Source: Candidatus Saccharimonadota bacterium (lineage in GTDB: Bacteria; Patescibacteriota; Gracilibacteria; Absconditabacterales; Absconditicoccaceae). Taken from it: a stretch of 32,000 nt of DNA. Location: the NCBI GenBank assembly GCA_965231145.1, contig OZ246420.1:1-32000 (forward strand), in the 5' to 3' direction. The notes under the pieces were generated by a model that was not told where the DNA came from, searched no databases, and saw only the letters and a program-made list of their open reading frames with translations. The translations under genes were made by a program, and so were the position numbers. Positions 635-31,269 of the stretch are shown here, one piece after another (position 1 is the stretch's first letter; the number at the start of each line of letters is the position of its first letter).

Positions 635-1072
635 TTATTGGGTTGATATGCCTCCTGAAACGTCAGTAGAGCTACCAGCATATGAACATCCTGCTATCTG
701 CGCGAGAGCGTCAAATGTTTGTTCTCCTTCGTATTTTTGTCCCTGATAAATCCATGTTGGATATCCTTTTACACCTGCTATGTTACACTTTACAGCGTCG
801 GTTGTACATTCGATATAGTCTATCTTAGAAAATGATGTACCAAACATTTCTTTCTGCGCCTTACAGTGAGGACACCGACTTGCTCCATACATCTTTACTC
901 CCTTGTCTGTCAGACACTGGGCAAGAGCATCGACCTGAGCAGGACTTACTGCTGGAGCAGCCTCCTTTGAATTGGCTTTTACGATCCAGATAAGAGCGCC
1001 TATGAAGAGGGCAGCAAGAACAACAATGAGTATGATATTGTTGTTTTTCTTTTTATGAGAGTGTCTCAACAT
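635..1072 (-). CDS. Membrane-anchored thioredoxin-fold protein with a CPHC motif, resembling the Trx-like domain fused to bacterial VKOR
   Basis: The track ORF is 635..1075 with a GTG start, and the first ATG is at 1072. It has an N-terminal TM helix (IILIVVLAALFIGALIWIV). The domain reads KMYGAS-x-CPHCKAQKEMFG ... GVKGYPTW, where x is a CGG codon (875-877) at the conserved Trp of WCxxC. The stop is TAA. Confidence 0.8.
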   Translation of the reverse strand: MLRHSHKKKNNNIILIVVLAALFIGALIWIVKANSKEAAPAVSPAQVDALAQCLTDKGVKMYGASRCPHCKAQKEMFGTSFSKIDYIECTTDAVKCNIAGVKGYPTWIYQGQKYEGEQTFDALAQIAGCSYAGSSTDVSGGISTQ

Positions 1073-6246: not shown

Positions 6247-7095
6247 TTAATATTTATCTAATATATAACTATTAAGAGGTGATGTTGATGAAAGTTTTTC
6301 TCAACACATACGACAGTACTGTGCATCAGTTTCATGAGGAGAGGATTGACATCTATCACAAATAGCGTCTCACATTTTTTCTTTGTTTATCAACTTTACA
6401 ACATCGAGAAAAGTAACGATAGAGACAGATGATATGATTGCTAAGAATATTGGTCCAAGAATAATAACAAGACCTCAGACTATTTTCCCTAAGAGAGTCA
6501 TCGGAAAGATGTCTCCATAACCAACTGTCGACATAGTCACCAGCGCCCACCACATACTACTTGGTATGTCGGTGAATCACGGATTGGTTGCTCATTCGAT
6601 AGCATACATAAGAAAAGAACCGACTAACCAGCAAAGTAGAAAGAATATACCAGCAATCTTGTACTTATAGGTGTTCTTTTTGAGTGCTTTCCAGAAGTTT
6701 GTAAGGAAAGTGAAGTACTTACCGAGCCTAAATATCCTACAAATTCTGGTAATTCTTAAAACCTTAAGATATCCTACTGCGAGGTATCCATGAAACCCAA
6801 ACGCGATAATGAAAGGAACAGATGCTATTATATCGAAGATATTGAACACATTAGAAAAAAAAGATCTCTTCCATCCTGAAAGATGTGCACGAATAAGAAG
6901 ATCGATCAAAAAAATAAACGAAAGGATAAGTTCAACGATCAATATGGTCTCCGAGAAAGAGTATTCAATGCTCTTTATGGATCCTATGATCATGAAAATA
7001 ATAGCTAAAATAGTCATACTTCGCATGAAAGTATTAGCTACATAACCTCGTTTTTCGTCTCTCGGATAATCAATAAAGAGTTTTTCTTTCTGCAT
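6247..7095 (-). CDS. Voltage-gated (6TM, Kv-type) potassium channel with a C-terminal CxxC...CxxC tail
   Basis: Track ORF 6592..7152 ends at a TGA. Read through five in-frame TGA codons, it reaches TAA 6247-6249. It has an S4 voltage sensor ([17 protein letters not shown]) with Arg at every third residue, encoded by AGA/AGG. The selectivity filter is TMSTVGYGD. The tail reads [20 protein letters not shown]. The start is taken at ATG 7093-7095, and a TTG at 7152 is an alternative. Confidence 0.85.
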
Positions 7096-12785: not shown

Positions 12786-14117
12786 TTACTGTTTTGCGTA
12801 CATTGCTTTCGCCCTTTTGCTTCGCTCATAGTGGTCAACGATAGGCTTCGCATATCAGAGGTCATTTTCGAGAGGATTGTGAATTTTCTTTGGATCAATG
12901 TTGCGAAGCTCAGGTATTCGCTTTTTGATATACTCACACTGTGGATCAAATCTTTCCGACTGCAATAGAGGAGAAAATATTCTTAATGGCTTTGGATCCG
13001 CTCCTACGCTCGCTGCTCGCTGTCGATTTCCTATATTTACATTTTCATCGTAATCTAAGAGATAATTTGCAAAGTGTTCTTCTCCCCGACGCCAGTCTAT
13101 CATAAGATCTTTCGTGAGGAATGATGCAACAACCATACGCACACGATTGTGCATCCAGTTTTCTGCCTTCAATTGTCTCATGCCGGCGTCAACCAGAGGA
13201 TATCACGTTTTTCACTCTTTTCGGGCGTCAAAATGTTTTTTGTTATTGTCCCAAGCTAGTTTTCTGCGCTTTTCTAAGAACTCAATTGCTCTGGTTTCGG
13301 GAAAATAAAACATGATATGGTTCCAAAATTCACGCCACGCGAGTTCACTAATAAATACGCTTTCTTGTCCTGCGGTATTTTTCACTGCTTTATACACTTC
13401 TCTGATGCTGAGGAGTCCAAATCTAATATAAGGCGAGAGCCTTGACGATCAGTCTATCGCAGGAAAATTTCTGGTTTCGTGGTAGCGAGAAAAATCGAAT
13501 TCATGAAGCCTTTCGTGCGCAGTAGTAACATCTCGAATAGTATTTTTTTTATAGGAAAGTTTTTTGAAGATGGAGTCGAGAGGAACCATTTCTACCTTAG
13601 GAGAGCTGATCTGAGAAGGCGCCTTATGTATAACAATCTCTTTTGTGGCAAGTTGTTTTTGCCACAGCTTGAAAAAAGGTGTGAATACTTTTCTTTGCGG
13701 AACCTTTTCTAGCGGTACCAGAAAAAAGTCATCGTGAGACGAATGATAGATCTGATTTTTTTTACATCGATCTTGTATGAATGCATCTCTCATGAGAGAT
13801 CATGAACCATAGCTTTTGTTGTAGTAGAGAGCTTCTGCTTTGTGCTCAGTGATAAGCTCAGGGATAATCTTTTTAGGATCTCCATAGCAGACCATAAGGT
13901 ACGATCATCTTTCGCGAAGCTCCTTATCAAGTTCTGTTACCGCATCTACAAGAAATCACACTCTGCTATCATTTTCAGGAAAATGAGAAAGTATGGTTTC
14001 ATCGAAAATAAATACCGGAATTATTTCTTTTGAGTATTTCAATGCCTCAAGCAAACCTGAGTTGTCTGTAAGTCTGAGGTCCTGACGAAACACAAACAAT
14101 GAGCGAGCGTACGTCAT
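12786..14117 (-). CDS. phrB: Deoxyribodipyrimidine photolyase (class I CPD photolyase/cryptochrome family)
   Basis: Four same-frame track ORFs (12855, 13212, 13449, 13956) are joined across TGA codons, giving 443 aa from ATG 14115-14117 to TAA 12786-12788. Matches to E. coli Phr include FISELAWREFW, KE-G-KT-G-YPLVDAGMRQL, NWMHNRVRMVVASFLTKDL and ASVGADPKPLRIFSP. The conserved WQW, AW and W-LPEL Trp residues are encoded by CGA. Confidence 0.9.
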
Positions 14118-14119
14118 AT

Positions 14120-15241
14120 TTATTTTACGAAATGAGGTAATGTAATGACTTTCTGGTTTTTTCCTGCTCGCCATTTTTCTGTTGGCTCCTGCATAAACGG
14201 AGAAGGAACAAGATATGTGGTGTTATGATGACGGAAAAGAAATTTGATAACACGAAGAAGAAATCGTTTGCAGATGAGCAATATAATTTTAAGAGGATTT
14301 TTTGTCTTTCCAACTTGAAGCCAGTAAGATAGAGCCATAGATCCTGCAACTTTCCAGATGTTATATAAGACAGAAGGATATGGAACGTAATATCCCATGT
14401 CATGAAACATCATTCGAATCTTTGTATCATGAGGTATAGCAGTGAGTGGAAGCCATCCGATGTTTCTGATAACGCTATGGCACCATACTATATCTGGCTT
14501 GAAATCTTTTATTTTCTTGCGGAGTTTTCGCCATGTAGCTATATTGAAAAATGTTTTTATGAGACCCGCATACGATAGTTTTTTTGCGCTTCAAAATTTC
14601 TCAACCACAAAACCATGCTGCTCTAAGAGCTTTGTTGCTTCATCGATAAACACTTCAACTCATCAGATTCTTATAGAAAAATCACTCACCATGAGGATGC
14701 GTTTTGCGTGTCCCGCAAGGCTTTTCACCTGTGAAATCCAAGCGTCTGTACTATATGCAGCGAGTCCTAGTTGCTCAGGTCCAATAGGAAATTCATGTTT
14801 CGCCTTGTTGTTTTTGATGATGGTTGATACCAAAGAAAATAATTTTTCTTCGTGAGTTTCTCCAGAGGCTTTTGTTGCGTCGAGCTCATCTATGACAAAA
14901 GGTGCGATACCTCACTTCTTAAATCCGATGACCGGAACTCATGAGCGAAGAGCTTCGAGCGCGCTTAAACCAAATGTCTCTATGACACGAGAAGGCATGA
15001 GACAATAGTCTGCATCAATTAGTTTTTCTTTAATCAACTTGTTATCTGTTCGTCAGTGAAAAAACACATTATTTGGCAAAAGCTCTGAAAGGGCCTCTAC
15101 TGTATTGCTATAGCCTCCTGCGCCATACACATCGAGTGTCCAGTTAGTTATTCACTTTGCATACAAACTAGGAAAAACATCGAGGATGAGGTCGATGCCT
15201 TTTTCGTATTCGAGTCTACCGAAGAAGATAAATTTTGTCAT
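14120..15241 (-). CDS. GT-B fold (GT4-like) glycosyltransferase with its two Rossmann domains in swapped order
   Basis: I translated this by hand. The frame is continuous over 373 aa from ATG 15239-15241 to TAA 14120-14122, with 7 in-frame TGA codons. Residues 1-~115 form the Glycos_transf_1-type C-domain (KFIFFGRLEYEKGIDLIL ... PSRVIETFGLSALEALRS-G-VPVIG, with the ExxxxxxxE motif). The rest resembles a GT4 N-domain (KRILMVSDFSIRI-GG-VEVFIDEATKLLEQHGF ... KPDIVWCHS ... MFHD) and ends in a linker-like KVITLPHFV. Confidence 0.8.
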
Positions 15242-16035: not shown

Positions 16036-16710
16036 TTACTTCCACAGTCAAATAACAAATTCTCATTTGATGATGAGCTCTTTTTTCGTAATTTTTTCTT
16101 TCATCTCTTGTATGGTTCACATCAGCTTTTGGTCGAACATCTTGCTTATCTCGCGAGCGACAAATATTTTTCCGTCGTATCCGAGCTCTTCGAGCTCATC
16201 AAATAATTTTTCTACTCTATGTACTGACTCATAGAAGAAACATGGTGTATTTGAAACTGTTTCGATCATCATTTTTAATATGGTTTGTCTTCCCTTTTTC
16301 GTTGGGATGAAGCCAAAGTATGCAAAAGTACTTGTGTCGGTATAGGCGCTTACTATGGCAGGAATAAGCGCTGTTGCTCATGGAAGAACTTCAAAGGGCA
16401 GGTTGTTTTCCCGCGCCATCTTAATGAGATTTTTTCCTGGATCAGATAAGCCTGGCGTGCCTGCTTCGCTGGTAACAACCGCATCGTTTTCCTTGAGAAG
16501 ATTTACATAGTGATTGAGTTTTCACTGATCAGTAAAACTTGTGAGAGGAAAAAATTGCTTTCACGTCAGAGAGATCTCATACATGTTCATGAGTTTTTTT
16601 GTTGTCGCTGTGTCTTCACAGAAAAAAATATTCACTTCTTTAAGAAGTCTGAGACCACGAACAGTTATATCTTCTTTGTTTCCTATGGGAGTAGGAACGA
16701 AATAGAGCAT
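16036..16710 (-). CDS. rsmI: 16S rRNA (cytidine1402-2'-O)-methyltransferase RsmI
   Basis: I translated this by hand. It is 224 aa from ATG 16708-16710 to TAA 16036-16038, with 6 in-frame TGA codons. Motifs seen are MLYFVPTPIGNKEDITVRGLRLLKEV, FCEDT, EAGTPGLSDPG, VLP-G-ATALIPA, FYESVHR and AREISKMF. It is absent from the standard-code track, where only spurious opposite-strand ORFs are listed. Confidence 0.9.
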
Positions 16711-18243: not shown

Positions 18244-20046
18244 ATGACACTATTTAAAGATTTTGGCCTGAAACCAGGCATTATGAAAGCAATTGAAAAA
18301 GCTGGCTATACTGAGCCAACACAAATCCAAGCAGAGGTGTGGGAGGCCGCAAAAAGCGGCCAAAACATTGTTGGGCAGTCACAAACAGGGACAGGAAAAA
18401 CAACAGCATTTCTTCTTCCTCTTCTTGAAAAGGCTGACCCAAGAAAGCGTCATCCACAAGTGCTTATCGTAGCTCCTACTCGTGAACTTGTAGAGCAAAT
18501 TCGCGCAGACATTATGAAGCTTACTGAATTCTACACTATGAGATCTCTCGTGCTTATGGGAGGAAAGAAGCGCGAATGGCAAAAGGAAGATCTTGCTCGT
18601 GGACCTCAGTTCATCGTAGCAACCCCAGGAAGACTTATAGAGTTTATGGAGGAAGGATTTCTCGATCCTACACAAATAGAATATTTTGTTCTCGACGAAG
18701 TCGATAGAATGCTTGATATGGGATTTATCGATGATGTGGATCGGATCTGGGATCAGTTAACAAACCTGAAGCAGACGATGACATTTTCTGCAACTATTAA
18801 CAATGAAATTAAAGACGTGATCACAAAGCATTGTACAGATTTTATTAATATTAAAATCTCTGCAACTGTTACGGTAGACGCCATCGACCATACATATATT
18901 GATCTTCCTCTTGCTGATAAGTTTCCAACACTTATGCATCTTCTTGATGAACATAAGTGACAGAAGACTATCATTTTCGCACAGACAAAGAGAAATACAG
19001 AGGTGATTACCAATGAGCTTAAGAAGCACGGATATACATCTGCATATCTCAATGGAGATCTCGATCAGCGCCAGCGTACAAGAGCGCTTGATGCGTTTAA
19101 AAAAGGCATCTGTAAAGTGCTCGTAACAACTGACGTTGCAGCTCGCGGACTCAATATGGATAATGTTGAGCTTGTAGTAAATTTCGAGGTTCCTCGTGAG
19201 CCGGAAAGTTACATCCACCGTATTGGTCGTACAGGTCGTGCAGGGGCAACCGGTAAAGCACTCATGCTTGTTGCACCAGATGAGAAACATCTTATTTACG
19301 AAATAGAAAAAACACAAAAAATAAAGCTTGAAAAGTCTTCAGCTCATGGAGCAAAAGAAGATACAGAAGGAAAGTTTTCTCGTGTACAGCTTGATAAACC
19401 ACTTCCGCCATCAGACAAGAAAAGAAGAATGATGGAAAGAAGAGAAAGAAATGCGGCTGGAGGAAGAAATTGGGGAAATAAATTTGGTGCTTCAAGGTCT
19501 GAAAACAGAGGTGGATACGGTGACCGCGGAGGTAGATCGTTCGGTTCAAGAGATGGCGCAGCTCCAAGAAGCAATGAAGATCGTCCAGCAAGAACATATG
19601 CTCCGAGAGACGCATCAGCACCAAGAACATTCAATAGAGCGCCATCTACAGGAGAGAGAGCAGAGAGCAGAGAACAGAGTTATTCTGCGCCAAGGGCGCC
19701 AAGATCATTTGGTTCAAGAGATGGTGCGGCTCCAAGAAGAGAGCGTCCAAGGCGTGATGAGGCGTGGACTTCAAGAAATTTTGGCAATACAGTAGGCGGA
19801 TACGATGTAGACGCTACTCGCGAGCAAAGATATTTTGGAGAGTCAAAGTTTCTCGGAAGAAAGGCTGCTGACAGAGCAGGGAGAGAGTTTGATCCACATA
19901 AAGGACGTCCAGCGAGACCACAAAGACCTGGTGATAACTTCATCGGTGCTGATCGCGGACCAAGAGCTCCAAGAACGTCAGCTCCAAGAGGAGCTGGTTC
20001 AAGATCTACTGCTCCAAGGCCAAGAGCTCCAAGAAGAGAAGCTTAA
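18244..20046 (+). CDS. DEAD-box ATP-dependent RNA helicase with a long Arg/Gly/Pro-rich C-terminal tail
   Basis: Track ORFs 18187..18960 and 19003..20046 share a frame and are joined across the TGA at 18958-18960 (LLDEHK-G-QKTIIF). The gene runs from ATG 18244 and encodes 600 aa. Motifs seen are the Q motif (GYTEPTQIQ), motif I (GQSQTGTGKT), Ia (PTRELV), TPGR, DEVD, SAT and HRIGRTGRAG. The tail contains two copies of RSFGSRDGAAPR. Confidence 0.92.
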
Positions 20047-20140: not shown

Positions 20141-20174
20141 CTTATTATTATACAATGTGTTCATTTCGTGTTAA

Positions 20175-20247
20175 GGCACCAGTGGGATTCGAACCCACGA
20201 TCGAAGGCTTTGCAGGCCCCGCCATTAGACCGCTCTGGCATAGTGCC
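20175..20247 (-). tRNA. tRNA-Cys (anticodon GCA)
   Basis: The reverse complement reads GGCACTATGCCAGAGCGGTCTAATGGCGGGGCCTGCAAAGCCTTCGATCGTGGGTTCGAATCCCACTGGTGCC. The acceptor stem is GGCACTA / TGGTGCC. The anticodon loop is CT-GCA-AA. The T-arm contains GGTTCGAATCC. It is 73 nt long and CCA is not encoded. Confidence 0.9.
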
Positions 20248-21152: not shown

Positions 21153-22169
21153 TTAGATCTTCCGCTGTTTCTTATCTTCCTTTAGCTTATATGCTTTGTA
21201 CAAAAATTTATTTCCGATGATATCATAGCTTCCGGTAAGCTCGTATTTTACACCTCACATGGACTCCTTAAAATGACTTACCGTCACTAATTCGTGTTTT
21301 GGATAGCCTGTTGGAGCTCCACCCATAAGGTCAAATATCTGATAGCCCTCTTGTTTTGCCCGTTTAATAACCTCCCACTTGAGAAAGTTATTTGCTCCTA
21401 TGTTTCCTGCTTTTCTGTCGGTTGCTCCGTACAGATAGATGATTGCGTGAGCGCTCTTATCAAGAAGGTAGATGCTTCCGCTGACGATCTCTCCGCTCGG
21501 AGTTTTTACTAGCATGAGTGTCCCAGCCTTTTGTTTGATGCAGTAGTCTCTGAGAGCATGATACATTGGCTTTGTCAGTACAAAAAAGCTTTTCTTTGAG
21601 GCTGTGCCAGTCCAGATTTTATAGAACTCATCCCATTCTTCGAGCGTGGCGGTTGTCATCTGGAGGTGGTGTCTCTGAGCCTTCTTTATGGCTTGTTTAC
21701 AGTTTGAAGTCACGTCATTCCAGAGCTCATCCTCCTTTTTTCTGAGGTCTATCATGATGGTGCTGTTTGGTAAATTTTCTTTGAACCCTACCTCCAAATT
21801 GAAAAGCTCACGCATCTCCTGCTGAGTAATATTGCGCTTCAGTCTGATGGCTTTTAACACTGTTTCATTTTTATTAATCTTGCATGGAAACCCATCAAAT
21901 GGATCGATAATCCCAAGCTGGAAGAAAAGATCTTCTTTGTTTTTCAGAAATTGCTCTTTAATGTTTTCGATGTCTTTCTTGAGTTGCTCGTGTTTGTCCT
22001 GTATTTCAACTCCTAGTACCTGATACCACTTAAATTTCCATGGCCCTACCTTCTTGTCTCTGATAACGCCAAAATGGCGCTTCCCAAGTAGCTCTACTTC
22101 AAATGTCGGCTTTCTGTACACATCTTTCGTAAGGTCGTATCGAAGCTGTGATTGATAGAAGTTATACAT
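21153..22169 (-). CDS. FemAB/MurM-family peptidoglycan peptide-bridge aminoacyltransferase
   Basis: Track ORF 21255..22190 has a TTG start and ends at a TGA. It continues to TAA 21153-21155 (FKESM-GG-VKYELTGSYD). The start is taken at ATG 22167-22169. The N-terminal motif is FYQSQL-x-YDLTK, where x is CGA at the conserved Trp of FLQSxxW. Core segments are IYLYGATD and GANNFLKWEVIKRAKQEGYQIFDLMG. Confidence 0.85.
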
Positions 22170-23385: not shown

Positions 23386-23475
23386 GGAGAGATGGCAGAG
23401 CGGTTGAATGCGACTGTCTTGAAAACAGTTGTCCTTTTGCGAGGACCGTGGGTTCGAATCCCTCTCTCTCCGCCA
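23386..23475 (+). tRNA. tRNA-Ser (anticodon UGA, reads UCA/UCN), class II with a long variable arm and encoded CCA
   Basis: The sequence is GGAGAGATGGCAGAGCGGTTGAATGCGACTGTCTTGAAAACAGTTGTCCTTTTGCGAGGACCGTGGGTTCGAATCCCTCTCTCTCCGCCA. It closely parallels E. coli tRNA-Ser(UGA). The anticodon loop is CT-TGA-AA. There is one U-U mismatch in the T stem. Confidence 0.92.
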
Positions 23476-23570: not shown

Positions 23571-24632
23571 TTGGTAAATCTTGTAGTATTCAATTATCTG
23601 ATCATTTACGCGGATAAGTTCCAACTTGCGGTACAGACATCTCCAGTGAAAGCTTCTTTCACGAATGTCATGCCTACGGCAAGCGCGGATATAAACGCGC
23701 AGTCTATCATTTTTGATAACAATGATCTTGGTGGCAACCTTACCTATATCGTAAGATCGGGTGACACTATCGAATCTATTGCTGCAGATCTGAATACGAC
23801 AGTAGACAATATTAAGAAAGTAAATAATCTGAAGGGTAACGATCTACGTGCCGGACAAAAATTGACTATCAGTCAATTGCCAGGTATCATTGTTACCATG
23901 CAGGAAGATATAGCGCTCGGAGATTTCATTAGCGCATACGATCTCAGTGAGGTCGATATTAAAACGCTCAACAACATCGCGGACTCAAGAAAGATTATCC
24001 ATAAAGGATGAGAGCTCTTCATTCCTATTAGCGAAAAAGATGCTCAGGACAAAGGTCTCATAGAGAAGCCTGAACCGATTGTTGCACAGCAAAAACCAGA
24101 CGTACCAACAACAAAGCCAGATACAAAGCCAACATCAACAACTACCAATACTCCTGTAACAGCAGCAACCGTTGCCCCATCTCCTAAAAAGGTAGTAGCA
24201 ACAGTAAGTCAGATTGTCGCGTCAGAATGAACAAGTACCATTACCTATAAGAAAGGAACAATCCTTGCAACATGGTACCAAAAAACGACAACAGAAGACG
24301 GATTTGCGGCAGGTTATTGTACAGCCTATGCTGCTCAGAGAAGACCAGATATCTTCAAGAGTGATGTGACATTCCGTGGAAATGCTAAGGAGCGGAAAGC
24401 AAATGCAAAAAGAGCTGGATATACTGTAACTAATACACCATCGAAAGGAGCTATTGTTGTCTACCAACCCGGCCAAGGATGAGCATCTTCATATGGTCAC
24501 GTAGCTATCGTAGAAAATGTAGACGAAGAAAAGGGTCTTATGACTATTTCAGATATGAATGGTCCTGCTGGAAGAGGCGTGGTAACAACTCGTATTGTTC
24601 CATATGGCGAATGAGAAAGTTATATTCCATAA
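23571..24632 (+). CDS. Secreted peptidoglycan hydrolase with LysM repeat(s) and a C-terminal CHAP domain
   Basis: Track ORF 23571..24011 has a TTG start. It continues through 4 in-frame TGA codons to TAA 24630-24632. It has a LysM domain (YIVRSGDTIESIAADLNTTVDNIKKVNNLKGNDLRAGQKLTI), a Pro/Thr/Lys linker and a CHAP domain (AAGYCTAYAA ... GNAKE-x-KANAKRAGY ... YGHVAIVE, with x = CGG). The true start is ambiguous (see findings). Confidence 0.85.
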
Positions 24633-24843: not shown

Positions 24844-27800
24844 ATGTCCTGGCTCAAGCAATTTTGGACATGGCTCACAACCGGTATCGTTCGAAAGACT
24901 ATTCTTTTTGGCTTTTTGGCCGTGGTTCTTATCGGAGCTCTCTGGTTTTATGTCGCGGTGATTAGTACGCTTCCAGATCTCAATGATATTAGTAAATGAT
25001 TTTCACAGACAACAATTATTACCGATAGAAATGGAGAGACTCTTTATAAGCTCTATGACGAAAATAGGGTATATGTAGGGTATGATCAAATGTCTCCCCA
25101 TGTTATTAATGCGATCGTTGCTGCGGAAGACCAGGACTTTTGGACCAACCAGGGATTTGACTATAACGGACTTTTGAGAGCAGTCTGGGCAACTATCAAA
25201 AATGGGACGCTCAGTGGGCCTGGAGGTTCAACAATTACGCAGCAGCTCATCAAGCTTTTGCTTCTTTCAAACGAAAAAACGCTCACAAGAAAAGCGAAAG
25301 AGATTATCCTCGCAACAAAACTTGATGATTACTTTCAGGCAGAGATCAGTAAAGAAAAACCAGACCTCTCTTCATCAGAGCGCAAAAAAGAAGTTAAGAA
25401 GCACATCGTGGAGATGTATCTCAACTATATCTTTCTTGGAAACAACTCTAATGGTGTAGAGGCGGCATCGAAAACATACTTTGGGAAGTCGGCTAAAGAT
25501 ATAGATATCCTGGAGTCTGCGATTCTTGCATCTATGGCACAGCGTCCTTCTACCGTAAATCCATATAGAAATGTTGGTCAGCTTATGGGGCGCTTTACAG
25601 TAACACTTGATGGTGATGCTGTTGATGCCACAACCGGAGTTATCATGCAAAAAGTAGTGGAAAGGATGATCAGCAATATCAATGACTCATCAAAATCTGT
25701 AAGCAAGTCAGCAGGAGGGTTTATGAGTTACGTAGAAAAAATAGGAGATTTTAGTCTAGAGATAGAAGGACAAGACTATGATGTTATCTTCACGCCGGGA
25801 AGAAAAGATTACACCCTTTCAAGAATGTATGAAGATGGGTACATCGATGCACAGCAAGCAAAAGATGCGTTTATCGAGGGTCTTACTTATCAGTTTAAAA
25901 GCGCAAGGATAGATATCAAAGCTCCTCACTTTGTCTTCTGGATTATCGAATGGCTCAAGAGTGAGGGTTATACAGAGGAGCAACTAACAAAAGGAGGTCT
26001 GACCATCAAAACAACGCTTGATCTCAAGGCTCAGGATATAGCAGAGAAAAGTATTTCTGATAATATAAGCACTATCAATGGATATGGAGCGAATAATAGC
26101 TCTATGCTTTATCTCGATAGTCTCAATGGTGATGTGCTTGCTTACGTGGGTTCAGCAGACTATAACAATGAAGAGATCGCAGGAAAGGTCGATATGGTGC
26201 AACAACTCAGACAACCCGGTTCTTCTATCAAACCGCTTGTCTACGCATACGGATTTATGAATCTTCCGCTCACTATAGATACTCCGATCTACGATATTCC
26301 ATTTAAGATTGGTAATGATGCTCCAAACAATAATGATGGACTTGTAGAGGGTGTGTTGCCCCTCAGAAAGGCGCTTGGACACTCAAGAAATATCCCGGCA
26401 ATCAAGATGTACTTCGCTGCAGGAGGACAAGATAAGCTTATACCCTTTTTCAATAAGCTTGGTATTGATTCTTATGATTCAAAGAAAGATTATGGATATC
26501 CGCTCTCTATCGGAGCAGGAGAGCTCAAGATGATGGAACTCGCACACGCATATACACAACTAAGTTCTATCAATGGAGCTCCAGCAAAGATTAATCCCAT
26601 CTTGGAGATCAAAGGGCAAGGAGGAAATATTCTCTACCAGAAATCACAGGAACAGGAAAAACTTCAGGAGAAGCTTATTCCGGGGGGAGTAGGTTATCTC
26701 ATGTGGAAAATGCTGACAACGGAAGAAAATCTTCCTGCAGCTTGGGTCGCAAATTTTAGGGTGTCATGACTGCTCTATGCTAACAAGTCGGGTACGACAG
26801 ATATGAAAGATCCAAAAACAGGAAAAAAATTACCAAGAGATGGTTGGCTCGTAGGATATACTCCATCGAAGGTGGCCGTGTTTTGGGCTGGAAATACCCA
26901 GGGAAATCCTATGAATGTGAATGCATATGGAGGATGGGTAAATGGAAAAACATTTAGGCAGTTCTTTACACAGCTTCGCAGAGATGATCTTATCCAGTCA
27001 GAAAATGTATCACCCATAGAAGTCAAAGATGTGACGATCTCAAAGATCTCAGGGAAGCTTGCTAGTGATAGTACACCAGAGGAACAAAAAATTGTGACGC
27101 AGGCATATCTTTCAACAACACCTACCGATGTTGATACGACTACAACCGCTATTCAAATTGATAAGGCATGTATGGGTAAAATCTCGGACGTCACTCCAAG
27201 AGAAGATATTGTTAAAGGATATCTGATCAAACCAACAAGTTTCATGCCAAATAATATGGATGTCGATGATATTACGAACTGGTGGAAAGAGAAAATGACG
27301 CAGCCTGTGAGTGGAGAAGTTCAAGAAACGCTGACGAATATATTTCTCGAAGAGCCGACAGAAGTGTGTGCCAATAGACCGTCCCTTGGTGTGCAGGATG
27401 ACAGTGTTGTAATTACCCTCAAACAACCCCATGGCGATGGAAAGGCGGCGCAGACGTTTAGTGTCTGGTATGATATCACGACAGCGGCTCCACTTTCAAA
27501 AGTAAGGATCATGCTTGATAATCAGGATGTCGGTGATTTCGCTTATGCCAGCGCATGAACAAGAGTAAATGATATCAAGAAAGTAACAGCCTCTGTTCCT
27601 CTCAGCGCAGAAACACATACGCTTACTGTTATAGCAACAGACAACACGTGAAGATATAATAAGAAGAGTATCACTATCCGTGGCGTGAGTGAAGATATTG
27701 TAGCTCCATATCTCTTTGCGGATACGATGACAGTAAGACCAAGGGCTGATGGACAATACGACGTCGTTATGCTCTTTGTCGATGATCTCTCGGCTATCAA

Positions 27801-29630: not shown

Positions 29631-30404
29631 ATGCATATTTTTGTCCGTATCATTCGTCTTATTCTTAAAATAGTTTTTTTCACGTTGTCGTTTGGACTGA
29701 TAGCGATAGCGATCTTTTATCCATCCCTTCTCAAAGAGTTTATTCAATGGTTACAGGGGGTGGTCCATCTTATCGGACGATGGAATTATCCACTGTCGTT
29801 TGGGCTTGGGTTCATCGAATCGGTACCGCTCCTTGGGATGACGGTGCCAGGGCAGAATGCCCTTTTCGTGATCGGAGGATTTGTTGCGCAACAGCACTGG
29901 GGCGTGTTGATATGTATCGTAGCGACGGCGATTATTTTGGGAGATGTTGTCGGTTATGTTTTAGGAAAATATCAGTGAGTTTGATTTATCGAAAGATATG
30001 GAAAATACTTTGGTATGGGGAAAACAGAGCTTCACTATATTTGAAGAGCGCTTGATAAGTATGGCGCGTGGGCGATCGTGCTCAGTAAATGGAATGGTTA
30101 TGCACGCGGTATTATCCCATTTATTGCAGGGACAAGCAAGATGGGGTGGGGAAGATTTATGTTATTCAATTTCATAGGCTCTGCCGTTTATGCTATCATA
30201 CTTATTACGCTTGCAAAGATATTTGTAGGATATTATGAGATCATTATCCCGTATATTCGCTGGATTATGCTGGGAATCTTGCTAATTGCAGGTTTATATA
30301 TGTGGTTTTTCAAAAGAGACTCTCTCAAAAGATATATTCGCGCGAAAGAAAAGGAGCTTGAAGAAGCGGAAAATGTGTTAACAGAAGTGGAACATAAGCT
30401 TTAA
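29631..30404 (+). CDS. DedA/SNARE-associated family membrane protein, paralog 2
   Basis: Track ORFs 29631..29978 and 30078..30404 share a frame and are joined across three TGA codons, giving 257 aa. DedA-type segments are GFIESVPLLGMTVPGQ and KWNGYARGIIPFIAGTSKM. The stop is TAA. Confidence 0.85.
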
Positions 30405-30552: not shown

Positions 30553-31269
30553 ATGATAGTAAGACTTGATAAGTATTTAGCAATGCTCGGATTGGTTTCT
30601 CGTCGCGATGCTGCAAAGGCAGTGAAGAGCGGGAGTATTTTGGTCGATGGCGAGATTGCGACGAAAAGTGATATGAAGATCGGTGAATGACAAACTATTT
30701 CTTTTTATGGTCAACAGATAGAGGTCAAAGAGCATGTGTATGTATTGCTGCACAAGCCAGCATGATATGTATGTTCAGAGCTTGATGAGGGCGGGCATCA
30801 TTCGTATAAGATGTTGCTGCAAGATTGTCCTTATGCGCCCATGCTTCACGTCGCTGGGAGATTAGACCGAGATACAGAGTGATTGGTTTTCTGCACAAAC
30901 GATGGTAATTTTACGCATGAAATTATTTCGCCAAAAAAGAAAGAAGAAAAAGAATATTATGTCGAACTTGCGTTGCCGATATCGGACGAAGATATTGCAA
31001 AGTTTGAAACATGAATACATATCAATGATGCGGAGGGTGAATTTACTTGTATGCCTGCAAAAGTAAAAAGAGTGTCTGAAAATAGTATTCTTTTGACCAT
31101 TCATGAAGGTAAGTATCATCAGGTGAAACGTATGGCGCAGGCTGTGAATAATGAGGTAATATATTTGAGGCGCGAGAGAATTGGGTCGTGGATGTTAGAG
31201 GGATTGGAGAAGTGAGAGTGGAAATATATTCAAATTCAAAAATCAGAGAGCAAAGAGCAGAATGTATAA
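30553..31269 (+). CDS. rsuA: Pseudouridine synthase of the RsuA/RluB family with an N-terminal S4 domain
   Basis: Track ORF 30505..30690 continues through 5 in-frame TGA codons to TAA 31267-31269. The start is taken at ATG 30553. Motifs seen are MIVRLDKYLAMLGLVSRRDAAKAVKSGSILVDG (S4), the catalytic GRLD-x-DTE-G-LVFCTNDG, and EGKYHQVKRM. Confidence 0.88.

What the first reader, a model, noticed from the sequence alone, without database searches (positions are those of the whole stretch)
12918..13223. CGA codons occupy four invariant Trp positions of photolyase, evidence for CGA Arg->Trp reassignment
Four CGA codons in the photolyase gene (minus strand) align with conserved Trp residues of E. 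coli Phr:
- Codons 13023-13025 and 13017-13019 read GN-CGA-Q-CGA-AAS, where E. coli and most class I photolyases have GGWQWAAS. That motif includes the electron-transfer Trp next to FAD.
- Codon 13221-13223 reads DA-CGA-KEGKTGYP, against E. coli AWQEGKTGYP.
- Codon 12918-12920 reads YIKK-CGA-IPELR, against E. coli FIRQWLPELR.

Four Trp-to-Arg substitutions in one enzyme, all at the same rare codon, are implausible. Conserved Arg positions elsewhere use other codons: CGT in HRIGRTGR and PTRELV of the helicase, AGA/AGG in the Kv S4 helix, and CGC in GPRGTGKT and SRC of DnaX.

To my recollection, a computational genetic-code screen (Shulgina and Eddy, 2021) reported CGA/CGG->Trp in a clade of Absconditabacterales that also uses UGA=Gly. 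This window looks like a member or relative of that clade.

Other CGA codons are not diagnostic. One is in RsuA (GRLD-x-DTEG, 30868-30870), two are in tilS and five are in the glycosyltransferase.
Basis: partly seen in the sequence, partly recalled or inferred. Interest (0 to 1): 0.85.

Follow-up and report, generated by a model that had tools for sequence, protein, structure and literature searches.

The report
CGA/CGG read as tryptophan (SR1)
This DNA comes from an uncultured SR1 (Absconditabacteria) bacterium that very probably reads the usual arginine codons CGA and CGG as tryptophan and the stop codon UGA as glycine; this altered genetic code was already predicted for the whole group in 2021, so the finding is correct but not new.

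Summary

- **Gene and sites.** The photolyase gene (minus strand, 14117..12786, intact only if TGA is sense) has CGA at exactly the four stated positions.
- **Trp columns.** Three of the four fall in columns that are 100% Trp in 80 out-of-clade homologues. The fourth flagged site (12918-12920) is Tyr/His in those homologues.
- **Arg control.** Fifteen conserved Arg columns use only AGA, AGG, CGT or CGC.
- **Codon comparison.** I compared 15 genes with seven relatives. The window's CGA/CGG pair with TGG, CGA or CGG 58 times and with another Arg codon once. Its TGG pairs with CGA/CGG 60 times and never with another Arg codon. Its other Arg codons never pair with TGG.
- **Outside the photolyase.** CGG replaces the Trp of the thioredoxin WCPHC motif and a conserved CHAP-domain Trp.
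- **Taxonomy.** Named relatives are SR1/Absconditabacterales.
- **Prior work.** Shulgina and Eddy (2021) predicted CGA+CGG->Trp for this whole clade.
- **tRNA.** I found a tRNA(UCG) with Trp-type identity features on other TGA=Gly metagenome contigs, but not in this genome.

Novelty: already known. Translation has not been tested experimentally.

The parts
12786..14117 (-). Class I CPD photolyase gene (443 codons plus TAA). It contains 7 TGA (Gly), 7 CGA, 1 CGG and 6 TGG codons.
   Evidence: E 1e-81 to solved photolyases; Pfam PF00875 + PF03441 homologues. Read with CGR=Trp its Trp content is 3.2%, against 2.8% in out-of-clade homologues; counting TGG only it is 1.4%.
13023..13025 (-). CGA, aa365: first W of the GGWQW motif. 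It aligns to W390 of the A. nidulans enzyme, the FAD-proximal Trp of the electron-transfer triad.
   Evidence: alignment. The column is Trp 80/80 outside the clade. Relatives have CGG, CGA, CGA, TGG, TGG, CGA, TGG. The triad numbering is from memory.
13017..13019 (-). CGA, aa367: second W of GGWQW.
   Evidence: The column is Trp 80/80 outside the clade. Relatives have TGG, TGG, CGA, TGG, TGG, CGA, CGA.
13221..13223 (-). CGA, aa299: the W of the A-W-x-x-G-x-T-G-Y-P motif.
   Evidence: The column is Trp 80/80 outside the clade. Relatives have CGA, TGG, CGA, TGG, TGG, CGA, CGA.
13533..13535 (-).
   Evidence: The column is Trp 80/80 outside the clade. Relatives have CGG, CGA, CGA, TGG, TGG, TGG, CGA.
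12918..12920 (-). CGA, aa400 (YIKK-x-IPELR): an aromatic column, not an invariant Trp.
   Evidence: It aligns to Trp in 2e0i and A. nidulans, but the column is Tyr 77 / His 3 in the 80 nearest out-of-clade homologues. Relatives have TGG, CGA, TAT, TAT, TAT, CGA, CGG.
13086..13088 (-). CGG, aa344 (DWR-x-GE).
   Evidence: The column is Trp 46, Leu 15, Met 12 outside the clade. It is Trp in 2e0i and Arg in A. nidulans. Relatives have TGG, TGG, CGA, TAT, TTG, CGA, CGG.
13767..13769 (-). CGA, aa117: a clade-specific site, hydrophobic or polar outside the clade.
   Evidence: Outside the clade the column is Phe 25, Ile 20, Gln 11, Lys 10. Relatives have CGG, CTT, CGA, TAT, TAT, TGG.
12822..12824 (-). 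CGA, aa432: a clade-specific site, Met outside the clade.
   Evidence: Outside the clade the column is Met 76/80. Inside the clade it is W 18 and 'R' 9. Relatives have TGG, CGA, TGG, AAT, CAA, CGA, CAA.
875..877 (-). CGG in the thioredoxin-like protein: the W of the WCPHC active-site motif.
   Evidence: Query YGAS-x-CPHC aligns to YGAYWCPHC of the Synechococcus VKOR thioredoxin domain (3kp9/4nv2). Coordinates.
24393..24395 (+). CGG in the LysM-CHAP peptidoglycan hydrolase, at a conserved CHAP-domain Trp.
   Evidence: It aligns to Trp in 2lrj (GNANNW) and 9eum (GDAADW). All three syntenic relatives have TGG.
14120..15241 (-). Glycosyltransferase gene with five CGA codons (15050-15052, 14528-14530, 14414-14416, 14264-14266, 14168-14170).
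   Evidence: At three of the five sites the relatives have only TGG/CGA/CGG; a fourth is mixed. At 14264-14266 the relatives have TTC, TTT, CTA and, in L189, AGG, which is the single Arg pairing in the matrix.
22140..22142 (-). CGA in the FemAB-family gene (YQSQL-x-YDL). A further CGG lies at 21360-21362.
   Evidence: For the CGA, relatives have CGA, TGG, CGA. The CGG at 21360-21362 aligns to Tyr of S. aureus FemX (6snr).
16411..16413 (-). CGG in RsmI.
   Evidence: It aligns to Arg in E. coli RsmI, but within the clade the column is Asn 70, 'R' 16, Trp 13, Tyr 13. The closest relative has TGG and the others CGA.
24892..24894 (+). CGA in the N-terminal membrane segment of PBP1A.
   Evidence: All three relatives have TGG at this site.
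30868..30870 (+). CGA in RsuA (GRLD-x-DTEG), in a variable column.
   Evidence: No relative locus covers this gene.

Best explanation
The window comes from a member of the Absconditabacteria (candidate division SR1). This clade uses a doubly altered genetic code: UGA means glycine, and the arginine codons CGA and CGG mean tryptophan. CGU, CGC, AGA and AGG remain arginine.

**Mechanism (from the literature, partly re-observed here).**
- The clade has no tRNA(ACG), so no inosine-bearing tRNA-Arg reads CGA.
- CGU and CGC are read by tRNA-Arg(GCG).
- CGA and CGG are read by tRNA(UCG) and tRNA(CCG).
- These two tRNAs have lost the arginine identity element A20. They carry tryptophan identity features (G73, and A1-U72 or G1.U72), so TrpRS should charge them.

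**Consequences.**
- Because one U34 tRNA reads both CGA and CGG, the two codons changed meaning together.
- CGA, CGG and UGG are therefore synonymous, and drift among them produces the TGG/CGA/CGG mosaic seen at invariant Trp sites.
- The photolyase shows the effect so clearly because it is Trp-rich and its Trp residues are functionally fixed.

**Shown here:** the codon-level equivalence of CGA/CGG with TGG, their separation from the other Arg codons, TGA=Gly, and the clade assignment.

**Inferred:** which tRNA decodes these codons in this genome, how it is charged, and what the ribosome actually inserts.
For: 1. **Photolyase columns.** Four CGA codons lie in columns that are 100% Trp in 80 out-of-clade homologues. 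The other six such columns are TGG. Fifteen conserved Arg columns use AGA x9, AGG x1, CGT x4 and CGC x1, never CGA/CGG.

2. **W/R mosaics in relatives.** Forty close relatives carry 1-9 'R' at those ten Trp columns in their database translations. In the seven relatives whose DNA I fetched, the codon there is always CGA or CGG, never AGA/AGG/CGT/CGC.

3. **Codon-pair matrix over 15 genes and seven relatives.**
   - Window CGA pairs with TGG 18, CGA 18, CGG 4, other Arg 1.
   - Window CGG pairs with TGG 7, CGA 9, CGG 2, other Arg 0.
   - Window TGG pairs with TGG 81, CGA 44, CGG 16, other Arg 0.
   - Window AGA/AGG/CGT/CGC pair with other Arg 388, Lys/His 65, TGG 0, CGA 0, CGG 1.

4. **Out-of-clade checks in other genes.** CGG stands at the W of WCPHC, at a CHAP-domain Trp and at a FemX Tyr.

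5. **TGA=Gly.** TGA stands at the Gly positions of EGKTGYP, and the genes are open only with TGA as sense.

6. **Clade.** Named relatives include Ca. Vampirococcus lugosii, 'Candidatus Absconditabacterales bacterium', SR1 bacterium RAAC1_SR1_1 and 'Candidatus Absconditabacteria bacterium'. The NCBI assemblies GCA_030429145.1 and GCA_039809345.1 are fully syntenic.

7. **Literature.** CGA and CGG->Trp is predicted for all Absconditabacteria, with tRNA(ACG) absent and tRNA(GCG), (UCG), (CCG) and (CCA) present. Published usage is CGA 13-41, CGG 1-6 (24 in one genome) and UGG 44-75 per 10,000 codons (PMC8629427; restated in PMC13092985). The window has CGA 26, CGG 15 and TGG 116 per 10,000.

8. 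**tRNA.** A metagenome scan found a tRNA(UCG) family with A1-U72 or G1.U72, G73, C/U at position 20 and anticodon loop CUUCGGA. It sits on nine low-GC contigs that read TGA as Gly. One copy lies 20 nt upstream of tRNA-Trp(CCA).
Against: - **No decoding tRNA from this genome.** The window and its syntenic relatives carry only tRNA-Cys(GCA) and tRNA-Ser(UGA). The tRNA(UCG) genes I found are from other metagenomes and are linked to this window only by clade.
- **Biased tRNA search.** My pattern required a non-A at position 20, so it cannot exclude an additional canonical tRNA-Arg(UCG).
- **Imperfect columns.** One glycosyltransferase CGA pairs with AGG in L189. At one FemAB column the window and L188 have AGA where L003 and L004 have CGA. 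A similar channel column lies in an ambiguous alignment.
- **Uninformative sites.** Several CGA/CGG codons (TilS, RsuA, hypothetical proteins) lie in unconserved or uncovered positions and say nothing either way.
- **No direct evidence.** There are no protein-level data, so ambiguous Trp/Arg decoding cannot be ruled out.
Confidence: 0.93

Rival explanations
1. Ambiguous or transitional decoding. CGA/CGG are read partly as Trp and partly as Arg, for example through mischarging of the tRNA(UCG) or competition with a residual tRNA-Arg. Proteins would then be statistical mixtures at these sites.
For: In a few columns CGA/CGG in one genome faces AGA/AGG in another: glycosyltransferase 14264-14266 versus AGG in L189, and a FemAB column that is AGA in the window and L188 but CGA in L003 and L004. 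Shulgina and Eddy state that only experiments can exclude ambiguous translation. My tRNA search could not see A20-bearing tRNAs.
Against: CGA sits at the FAD-proximal Trp of the electron-transfer chain and in the WCPHC active site. Substantial Arg insertion there should be harmful. Even so, CGA/CGG make up 46-59% of Trp-type codons in relatives' loci. There are 118 TGG/CGR interchanges against 2 pairings between CGR and another Arg codon.
Confidence: 0.05
2. C-to-U RNA editing restores Trp codons in the mRNA. This is how CGG was once misread as a Trp codon in plant mitochondria. On this view the genetic code itself is unchanged.
For: CGG edited to UGG would give Trp, and the genomic signature at CGG sites would look the same. 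No tool result here supports editing; the plant-mitochondria precedent is from established knowledge.
Against: Most sites are CGA (24 against 14 CGG). Editing CGA gives UGA, which this organism reads as Gly, not Trp. Reaching UGG from CGA would need two different edits. Trp-type tRNA(UCG) genes exist on code-25 contigs, and these decode CGA directly.
Confidence: 0.01
3. Genuine Trp-to-Arg substitutions in a decaying or functionally shifted photolyase, with the standard meaning of CGA retained.
For: None beyond the literal standard-code translation.
Against: The gene is intact and keeps its conserved Arg, Gly and FAD-binding motifs. The same pattern occurs in at least nine other genes. Real Arg substitutions would mostly use AGA, the dominant Arg codon (182 against 24), but 0 of 60 non-TGG codons opposite the window's TGG are AGA/AGG/CGT/CGC.
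Confidence: 0.01

Closest known systems
CGA and CGG -> Trp reassignment in Absconditabacteria (SR1), on top of UGA -> Gly (NCBI translation table 25); Shulgina and Eddy, eLife 2021 (PMC8629427)
   Same: - The same two codons, the same new meaning and the same clade.
- The same low-GC background (window 39%; published 0.26-0.38 for the reassigned clades).
- AGA is the dominant Arg codon.
- CGA usage (26 per 10,000) falls within the published range.
- tRNA(UCG) genes with G73 and no A20 occur on code-25 contigs.
   Different: - Nothing in kind.
- In degree, CGG is commoner here (15 per 10,000) than in all but one published genome (<7). In the 9-21 kb loci of relatives, CGA+CGG make up about half of Trp-type codons, whereas the paper describes an early stage with rare reassigned codons. 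My counts cover whole ORFs of small loci that include a Trp-rich gene, not Pfam-aligned columns of whole genomes, so the comparison is rough.
CGG -> Trp in Anaerococcus and in an RFN20 Bacilli clade (Onthovivens); CGG -> Gln in Peptacetobacter (same paper; PMC13092985)
   Same: An arginine CGN codon is captured by a tRNA with non-Arg identity in a low-GC genome.
   Different: In those Firmicutes only CGG changes. CGA stays Arg because it is read by tRNA-Arg(ICG), and tRNA(UCG) is absent. Here both CGA and CGG change, which fits a lineage that has no tRNA(ACG) and decodes with a U34 tRNA.
UGA -> Trp with tandem tRNA-Trp(UCA)/tRNA-Trp(CCA) in Mycoplasma (translation table 4)
   Same: An extra Trp codon is served by an extra tRNA. 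On one SR1-type contig (L133) the extra tRNA sits directly upstream of tRNA-Trp(CCA).
   Different: That case is stop-codon capture, and the anticodon differs from CCA at one position. Here a sense codon is taken from another amino acid and the anticodon differs from CCA at two or three positions. The tRNA(UCG) is no closer in sequence to the neighbouring tRNA-Trp(CCA) (58-62%) than to unrelated tRNAs.
Apparent CGG = Trp in plant mitochondria, later explained by C-to-U RNA editing
   Same: The same genomic signature: CGG at conserved Trp positions.
   Different: Editing cannot explain CGA sites in an organism where UGA is Gly.

Membership tests
Absconditabacteria-type genetic code (UGA=Gly, CGA/CGG=Trp) | UGA is a sense codon placed at conserved Gly positions. 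| tested here: met
   Genes are open only with TGA as sense. TGA stands at both Gly residues of EGKTGYP and at other Gly positions of the photolyase alignment. There are 90 in-frame TGA codons in 27 ORFs.
Absconditabacteria-type genetic code (UGA=Gly, CGA/CGG=Trp) | CGA falls at conserved Trp/aromatic columns, not at Arg/Lys columns. | tested here: met
   Four CGA codons lie in columns that are 80/80 Trp, and none in the 15 conserved Arg columns. The codon-pair matrix gives TGG/CGA/CGG 40, Phe/Tyr 4 and other Arg 1.
Absconditabacteria-type genetic code (UGA=Gly, CGA/CGG=Trp) | CGG behaves the same way as CGA. | tested here: met
   CGG stands at the W of WCPHC and at a CHAP-domain Trp. The matrix gives TGG/CGA/CGG 18 and other Arg 0. 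There are only 14 CGG codons, so this rests on fewer sites than CGA.
Absconditabacteria-type genetic code (UGA=Gly, CGA/CGG=Trp) | CGU, CGC, AGA and AGG keep the Arg meaning. | tested here: met
   Conserved Arg columns of the photolyase use only these codons. They pair 388 times with Arg codons, 65 with Lys/His and 0 with TGG. The helicase, channel and DnaX Arg motifs also use them.
Absconditabacteria-type genetic code (UGA=Gly, CGA/CGG=Trp) | tRNA(UCG) and tRNA(CCG) with Trp identity (G73, no A20, A/G1:U72) are present in the same genome. | not testable with these tools
   The window and syntenic loci hold only tRNA-Cys and tRNA-Ser. The source contigs (Logan ERR4405439/ERR4405440) do not extend beyond the window. 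A Trp-type tRNA(UCG) was found on nine other TGA=Gly contigs, which supports the feature for the clade only. tRNA(CCG) was not searched for.
Absconditabacteria-type genetic code (UGA=Gly, CGA/CGG=Trp) | tRNA-Arg(ACG) and any Arg-type tRNA(UCG) are absent. | not testable with these tools
   This needs the whole genome. Absence is published for the clade. My tRNA pattern excluded A20 by design.
Absconditabacteria (SR1) as a taxon | The closest relatives of several proteins are named SR1/Absconditabacterales, and gene order is shared with them. | tested here: met
   Nine of the ten organism-named RsmI hits are SR1/Absconditabacterales; one is labelled Gracilibacteria. Photolyase relatives include Ca. 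Vampirococcus lugosii and an Absconditabacterales MAG. Synteny with GCA_030429145.1 and GCA_039809345.1 is complete. No rRNA or marker-gene phylogeny was made.
Class I CPD photolyase (PF00875 + PF03441) | Full-length match to solved CPD photolyases, with the FAD-binding domain and the Trp electron-transfer triad. | tested here: met
   E is 1e-81 to 2e0i and 1owl over residues 6-441. The triad positions correspond to aa365 (CGA), aa342 (TGG) and aa289 (TGG) by the A. nidulans alignment. The triad residue numbers are from memory.

The most novel reading that the evidence does not exclude
In the sub-lineage that contains this window, the reassignment may have passed the 'rare codon' stage described in 2021.

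- CGA/CGG supply about a quarter of Trp codons in the window.
- They supply about half in the syntenic loci of relatives.
- In some related photolyases they supply 8-9 of the 10 invariant Trp positions.

One possible driver is selection to move Trp out of the UGN box. There, the tRNA-Gly(UCA) that reads UGA could also misread UGG by U34 wobble. If so, CGA would be on its way to replacing UGG as the main Trp codon.
Probability: 0.2. Interest if true: 0.55.

Novelty: already known. Interest (0 to 1): 0.3.

Why it matters
Sense-codon reassignments in free-living bacteria are very rare. This one is still supported only by computation, so an independent rediscovery from raw sequence has some value as corroboration. 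It comes with clean codon-level statistics from genomes that, judging by their assembly accessions, probably post-date the 2021 survey.

The practical consequence is larger. NCBI translation table 25 does not include CGA/CGG=Trp, so public protein sequences of these organisms carry Arg where the cell very probably inserts Trp.
- In this window that affects about a quarter of all Trp positions.
- The affected residues include the FAD-proximal electron-transfer Trp of the photolyase and the Trp of a thioredoxin WCxxC motif.
- Many other database entries are translated with table 4 and show Trp at Gly positions.

Structure prediction, motif searches and heterologous expression of SR1 genes will be wrong unless these codons are recoded.

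Tried and rejected
1. **Extending the window to find the tRNA.** The only contigs carrying the window's DnaX (Logan ERR4405439_27672, 26 kb, and ERR4405440_320200, 5 kb) end inside the window.

2. **The genome-contig scan.** I spent it on the photolyase with Trp written at the CGR sites. The back-translated patterns assumed TGG, so it returned mostly non-SR1 photolyases. Only L010 (Absconditabacteria bacterium Bin6Zod) was useful.

3. **Published supplements.** Those of PMC13092985 and PMC8629427 hold no SR1 tRNA sequences.

4. **The search of protein representatives.** The third homologous-protein search was not used. I judged the chance too low that it would reach the FtsW-linked tRNA(UCG) of the closest genome (GCA_030429145.1).

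5. **RsmI CGG as a counter-example.** It aligns to Arg in E. coli. I rejected it as a counter-example because the column is Asn/Tyr/Trp/'R' within the clade and TGG in the closest relative.

6. **Origin of the tRNA(UCG).** Pairwise identities do not separate a tRNA-Trp origin from a tRNA-Arg origin.

7. **Pseudogene, RNA editing and true Arg substitution.** All were considered and rejected; see the rival explanations.
Full report
**1. What is in the sequence**

The window is 39% G+C. Under the standard bacterial code its genes are broken into short ORFs. When only TAA and TAG are treated as stops, long genes appear.

The photolyase gene lies on the minus strand from 14117 to 12786 (443 codons plus TAA). 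It has 7 in-frame TGA codons, 7 CGA, 1 CGG and 6 TGG. TGA stands at both glycines of the EGKTGYP motif and at other Gly positions in the alignment to solved photolyases, so TGA means Gly here.

- 13221-13223
- 13023-13025
- 13017-13019
- 12918-12920

**2. The photolyase columns**

All four sites align to Trp in the solved photolyases 2e0i and 1owl/1tez (E about 1e-81). By the A. nidulans alignment, aa365 (13023-13025) corresponds to W390, the FAD-proximal member of the Trp electron-transfer triad. The other two triad positions (aa342, aa289) are TGG. The triad numbering is from memory.

I aligned the 120 best database homologues.
- In 80 of them, ten columns are 100% Trp.
- In the other 40, the same ten columns are mosaics of W and R, with 1 to 9 'R' per protein.

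The window has CGA in four of these ten columns (aa195, 299, 365, 367) and TGG in the other six.

The fourth flagged site, aa400, lies in a column that is Tyr 77 / His 3 in the 80 out-of-clade sequences and Tyr/Trp/'R' in the 40. It is aromatic rather than invariant Trp.

The single CGG (aa344, 13086-13088) lies in a column that is Trp in 46 of 80.

As a control, I took the 16 columns that are at least 90% Arg in the out-of-clade set. In 15 of them the window uses AGA x9, AGG x1, CGT x4 and CGC x1, never CGA or CGG. The remaining column is Gln throughout the clade.

Read with CGR=Trp, the protein has 3.2% Trp, against 2.8% in the out-of-clade set. Counting TGG alone it has 1.4%.

**3. Codon-level comparison with relatives**

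I fetched the DNA of seven relatives:
- L003, a JGI metagenome contig
- L004, GCA_039809345.1
- L005, an ENA scaffold
- L006, Ca. Vampirococcus lugosii GCA_018420025.1
- L010, Candidatus Absconditabacteria bacterium Bin6Zod
- L188, GCA_030429145.1, on a 936,577-bp contig
- L189, Logan ERR7015365

L003, L004, L188 and L189 share the window's gene order. That order runs PBP1A, LysM-CHAP, Pdf, FemAB, helicase, DedA, RsmI, glycosyltransferase, photolyase, AcrB-like, MFP, channel, TilS.

Wherever the database translations show 'R' in a Trp column, the codon is CGA or CGG.

I counted codon pairs at well-aligned columns of 15 genes: no gap within five columns, and at least four identities among the ten neighbours.

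| Window codon | TGG | CGA | CGG | other Arg | Lys/His | Phe/Tyr | aliphatic |
|---|---|---|---|---|---|---|---|
| CGA | 18 | 18 | 4 | 1 | 0 | 4 | 4 |
| CGG | 7 | 9 | 2 | 0 | 0 | 1 | 3 |
| TGG | 81 | 44 | 16 | 0 | 0 | 12 | 6 |
| AGA/AGG/CGT/CGC | 0 | 0 | 1 | 388 | 65 | 3 | 22 |

With only the first three to four relatives, the contrast already gave Fisher p about 1e-32.

AGA is by far the commonest Arg codon (182 against 24 CGA). Genuine Trp-to-Arg changes would therefore mostly be AGA. None is.

At the four flagged sites the relatives show TGG, CGA and CGG intermixed. This is the pattern of synonymous drift. It does not fit the refuting scenario of TGG in all relatives and a decayed gene here.

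**4. Other genes, judged against proteins outside the clade**

- CGG at 875-877 is the W of the WCPHC active site of a thioredoxin-like protein (YGAYWCPHC in 3kp9/4nv2).
- CGG at 24393-24395 is a conserved CHAP-domain Trp (2lrj, 9eum), and it is TGG in three relatives.
- CGG at 21360-21362 aligns to Tyr in S. aureus FemX.
- CGG at 16411-16413 in RsmI aligns to Arg of the E. coli enzyme. Within 120 clade members that column is Asn 70, 'R' 16, Trp 13, Tyr 13, and the closest relative has TGG. It is not a counter-example.

Some sites remain uninformative because nothing conserved aligns to them. These are five in TilS, RsuA 30868-30870, DedA 29778-29780 and several in hypothetical proteins.

Three columns are not tidy.
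- One glycosyltransferase CGA (14264-14266) faces AGG in L189 and Phe/Leu codons in the others.
- One FemAB column is AGA in the window and L188 but CGA in L003 and L004.
- A similar channel column lies in an ambiguous alignment.

**5. Codon usage**

In 27 ORFs (9,195 codons) the window has TGG 107, CGA 24, CGG 14, AGA 182, AGG 41, CGT 64, CGC 52 and TGA 90. Per 10,000 codons that is CGA 26, CGG 15 and TGG 116.

The published values for Absconditabacterales are CGA 13-41, CGG 1-6 (24 in one genome) and UGG 44-75, measured in Pfam-aligned columns.

**6. Identity of the organism**

- Nine of the ten organism-named RsmI hits are SR1/Absconditabacterales, and one is labelled Gracilibacteria. They include the complete genome of SR1 bacterium RAAC1_SR1_1 at 63%.
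- Photolyase relatives with W/R mosaics include Ca. Vampirococcus lugosii and an Absconditabacterales MAG.
- The nearest sequences are L189 (RsmI 93%, AcrB-like 87%) and L188 (RsmI 82%, CofE-like 88%).
- The window itself matches Logan contigs from runs ERR4405439 and ERR4405440.

**7. What is already known**

Shulgina and Eddy (eLife 2021, PMC8629427) predicted with Codetta that CGA and CGG both mean Trp in Absconditabacteria, on top of UGA=Gly. They considered the entire clade reassigned.

They also reported the following for the clade:
- It lacks tRNA(ACG).
- It uses tRNA-Arg(GCG) for CGU and CGC.
- It has tRNA(UCG) and tRNA(CCG), classified as Trp acceptors by G73 and the lack of A20, with A/G1:U72 as supporting evidence.

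A 2026 paper restates this (PMC13092985).

**8. The tRNA**

Neither the window nor the syntenic loci contain a CGR-decoding tRNA. They hold only tRNA-Cys(GCA) and tRNA-Ser(UGA).

I scanned the JGI metagenome collection with a pattern for a class-I tRNA that has anticodon UCG and a non-A at position 20. The pattern was validated on E. coli and B. subtilis tRNA-Trp geometry and rejected an E. coli tRNA-Arg.

Most of the 120 hits are organellar-type tRNA-Arg. Nine contigs carry one family: L124, L128, L133, L137, L140, L150, L177, L178 and L181. Its features are:
- acceptor stem AGGGG.../...CCCCU or GGGUGG.../...CCGCCU, that is A1-U72 or G1.U72
- discriminator G73
- C or U at position 20
- anticodon loop CUUCGGA

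These contigs are 26-36% G+C. For eight of the nine, the longest ORF opens only when TGA is sense; in L133 only the second-longest ORF lengthens. TGA stands at Gly in the ABC signature, Walker A and GTPase G1 motifs. They also show CGG opposite TGG in FtsW/RodA.

On L133 the tRNA(UCG) lies 20 nt upstream of tRNA-Trp(CCA). On four contigs it follows FtsW/RodA.

This reproduces the published tRNA picture for the clade, with three limits:
- The genes are not from this genome.
- The pattern could not have found an A20-bearing tRNA.
- The sequence does not reveal whether the tRNA descends from tRNA-Trp or tRNA-Arg.

**9. Mechanism and rivals**

The best-supported mechanism is a split of the CGN box.
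- CGY is read by tRNA-Arg(GCG) as Arg.
- CGR is read by Trp-charged tRNA(UCG)/(CCG).
- The split is possible because the lineage has no inosine-bearing tRNA-Arg(ICG).
- Low G+C had probably already made CGR codons rare.

The rivals fare as follows.
- C-to-U RNA editing would explain CGG but not CGA, because UGA is Gly here.
- Real Arg substitutions and pseudogenisation are excluded by the codon specificity and the intact gene.
- Partial or ambiguous decoding cannot be excluded without proteomics. It is unlikely to be large, given CGA at catalytic Trp positions.

**10. Verdict**

The feature is already known; this is another genome of a clade for which it was published. Interest is modest.

The most novel reading still open concerns how far the reassignment has gone. 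In this sub-lineage CGA/CGG make up about 26% of Trp-type codons in the window and 46-59% in relatives' loci. They occupy up to 9 of the 10 invariant photolyase Trp positions in some relatives. These are later stages than the 'rare codon' state described in 2021. My samples are small and include a Trp-rich gene, so this needs genome-wide counts.

Noticed in passing
Relatives L003, L004, L005, L188, L189 (whole loci); proteins P0073, P0085, P0097, P0103, P0113, P0118: In relatives' loci, CGA+CGG make up 46-59% of Trp-type codons (for example L003: TGG 28, CGA 34, CGG 7). Some related photolyases have 'R' at 9 of the 10 invariant Trp columns. This is more than the <37 (CGA) and <7 (CGG) per 10,000 codons reported in 2021, and suggests lineages where CGA rivals UGG as the Trp codon.
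   Followed up: partly
Database homologues of RsmI (P0135-P0254), aligned to window 16036-16710: Many public translations of SR1 RsmI show G/W mixtures at invariant Gly columns (for example G 66 / W 53 at aa10). Those entries were evidently translated with table 4 (TGA=Trp) instead of table 25. Together with R at Trp sites, public SR1 proteins carry two kinds of systematic mistranslation.
   Followed up: partly
L133:2064-2230 (+); L128, L181, L140, L178: The Trp-type tRNA(UCG) lies 20 nt upstream of tRNA-Trp(CCA) on L133. On four other TGA=Gly contigs it follows FtsW/RodA, on three of them with a conserved 287-aa hypothetical protein in between. Despite the tandem position it is only 58-62% identical to the tRNA-Trp(CCA).
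   Followed up: partly
window 13767-13769, 12918-12920, 12822-12824 (photolyase aa117, 400, 432): At these three CGA sites, out-of-clade homologues have Phe/Ile, Tyr and Met, while clade members have TGG/CGA/CGG. These are therefore clade-specific gains of Trp rather than leftover Arg codons. As deposited, the clade's photolyases already average 3.3% Trp against 2.8% outside.
   Followed up: partly
FemAB gene, window about 22059-22061 (GVI-R-DKK, AGA); channel gene about 6862-6864 (GWK-R-SFF, AGA): The window (and L188, for FemAB) has AGA where the more distant relatives L003 and L004 have CGA/CGG. Either these are real Arg/Trp differences or, for the channel, the alignment is locally shifted. 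They are the only columns of this type.
   Followed up: partly
window 20174-20247 (-) tRNA-Cys(GCA); 23386-23475 (+) tRNA-Ser(UGA): The tRNA-Ser gene encodes its 3' CCA. The tRNA-Cys gene does not, although its orthologues in L003 and L004 do. The Trp-type tRNA(UCG) genes on other contigs also lack an encoded CCA.
   Followed up: no
window 19500-20046 (+), C-terminal third of the DEAD-box helicase: There is a long Arg/Gly/Ser/Pro-rich low-complexity tail (RGG-like repeats such as SFGSRDGAAPR, which occurs twice). This gene alone holds 40 AGA codons and only one CGG.
   Followed up: no
whole window: Stop-codon usage is extremely skewed: TAA 26, TAG 1 in the 27 ORFs. TGA (90 codons) supplies about 15% of Gly codons.
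   Followed up: no
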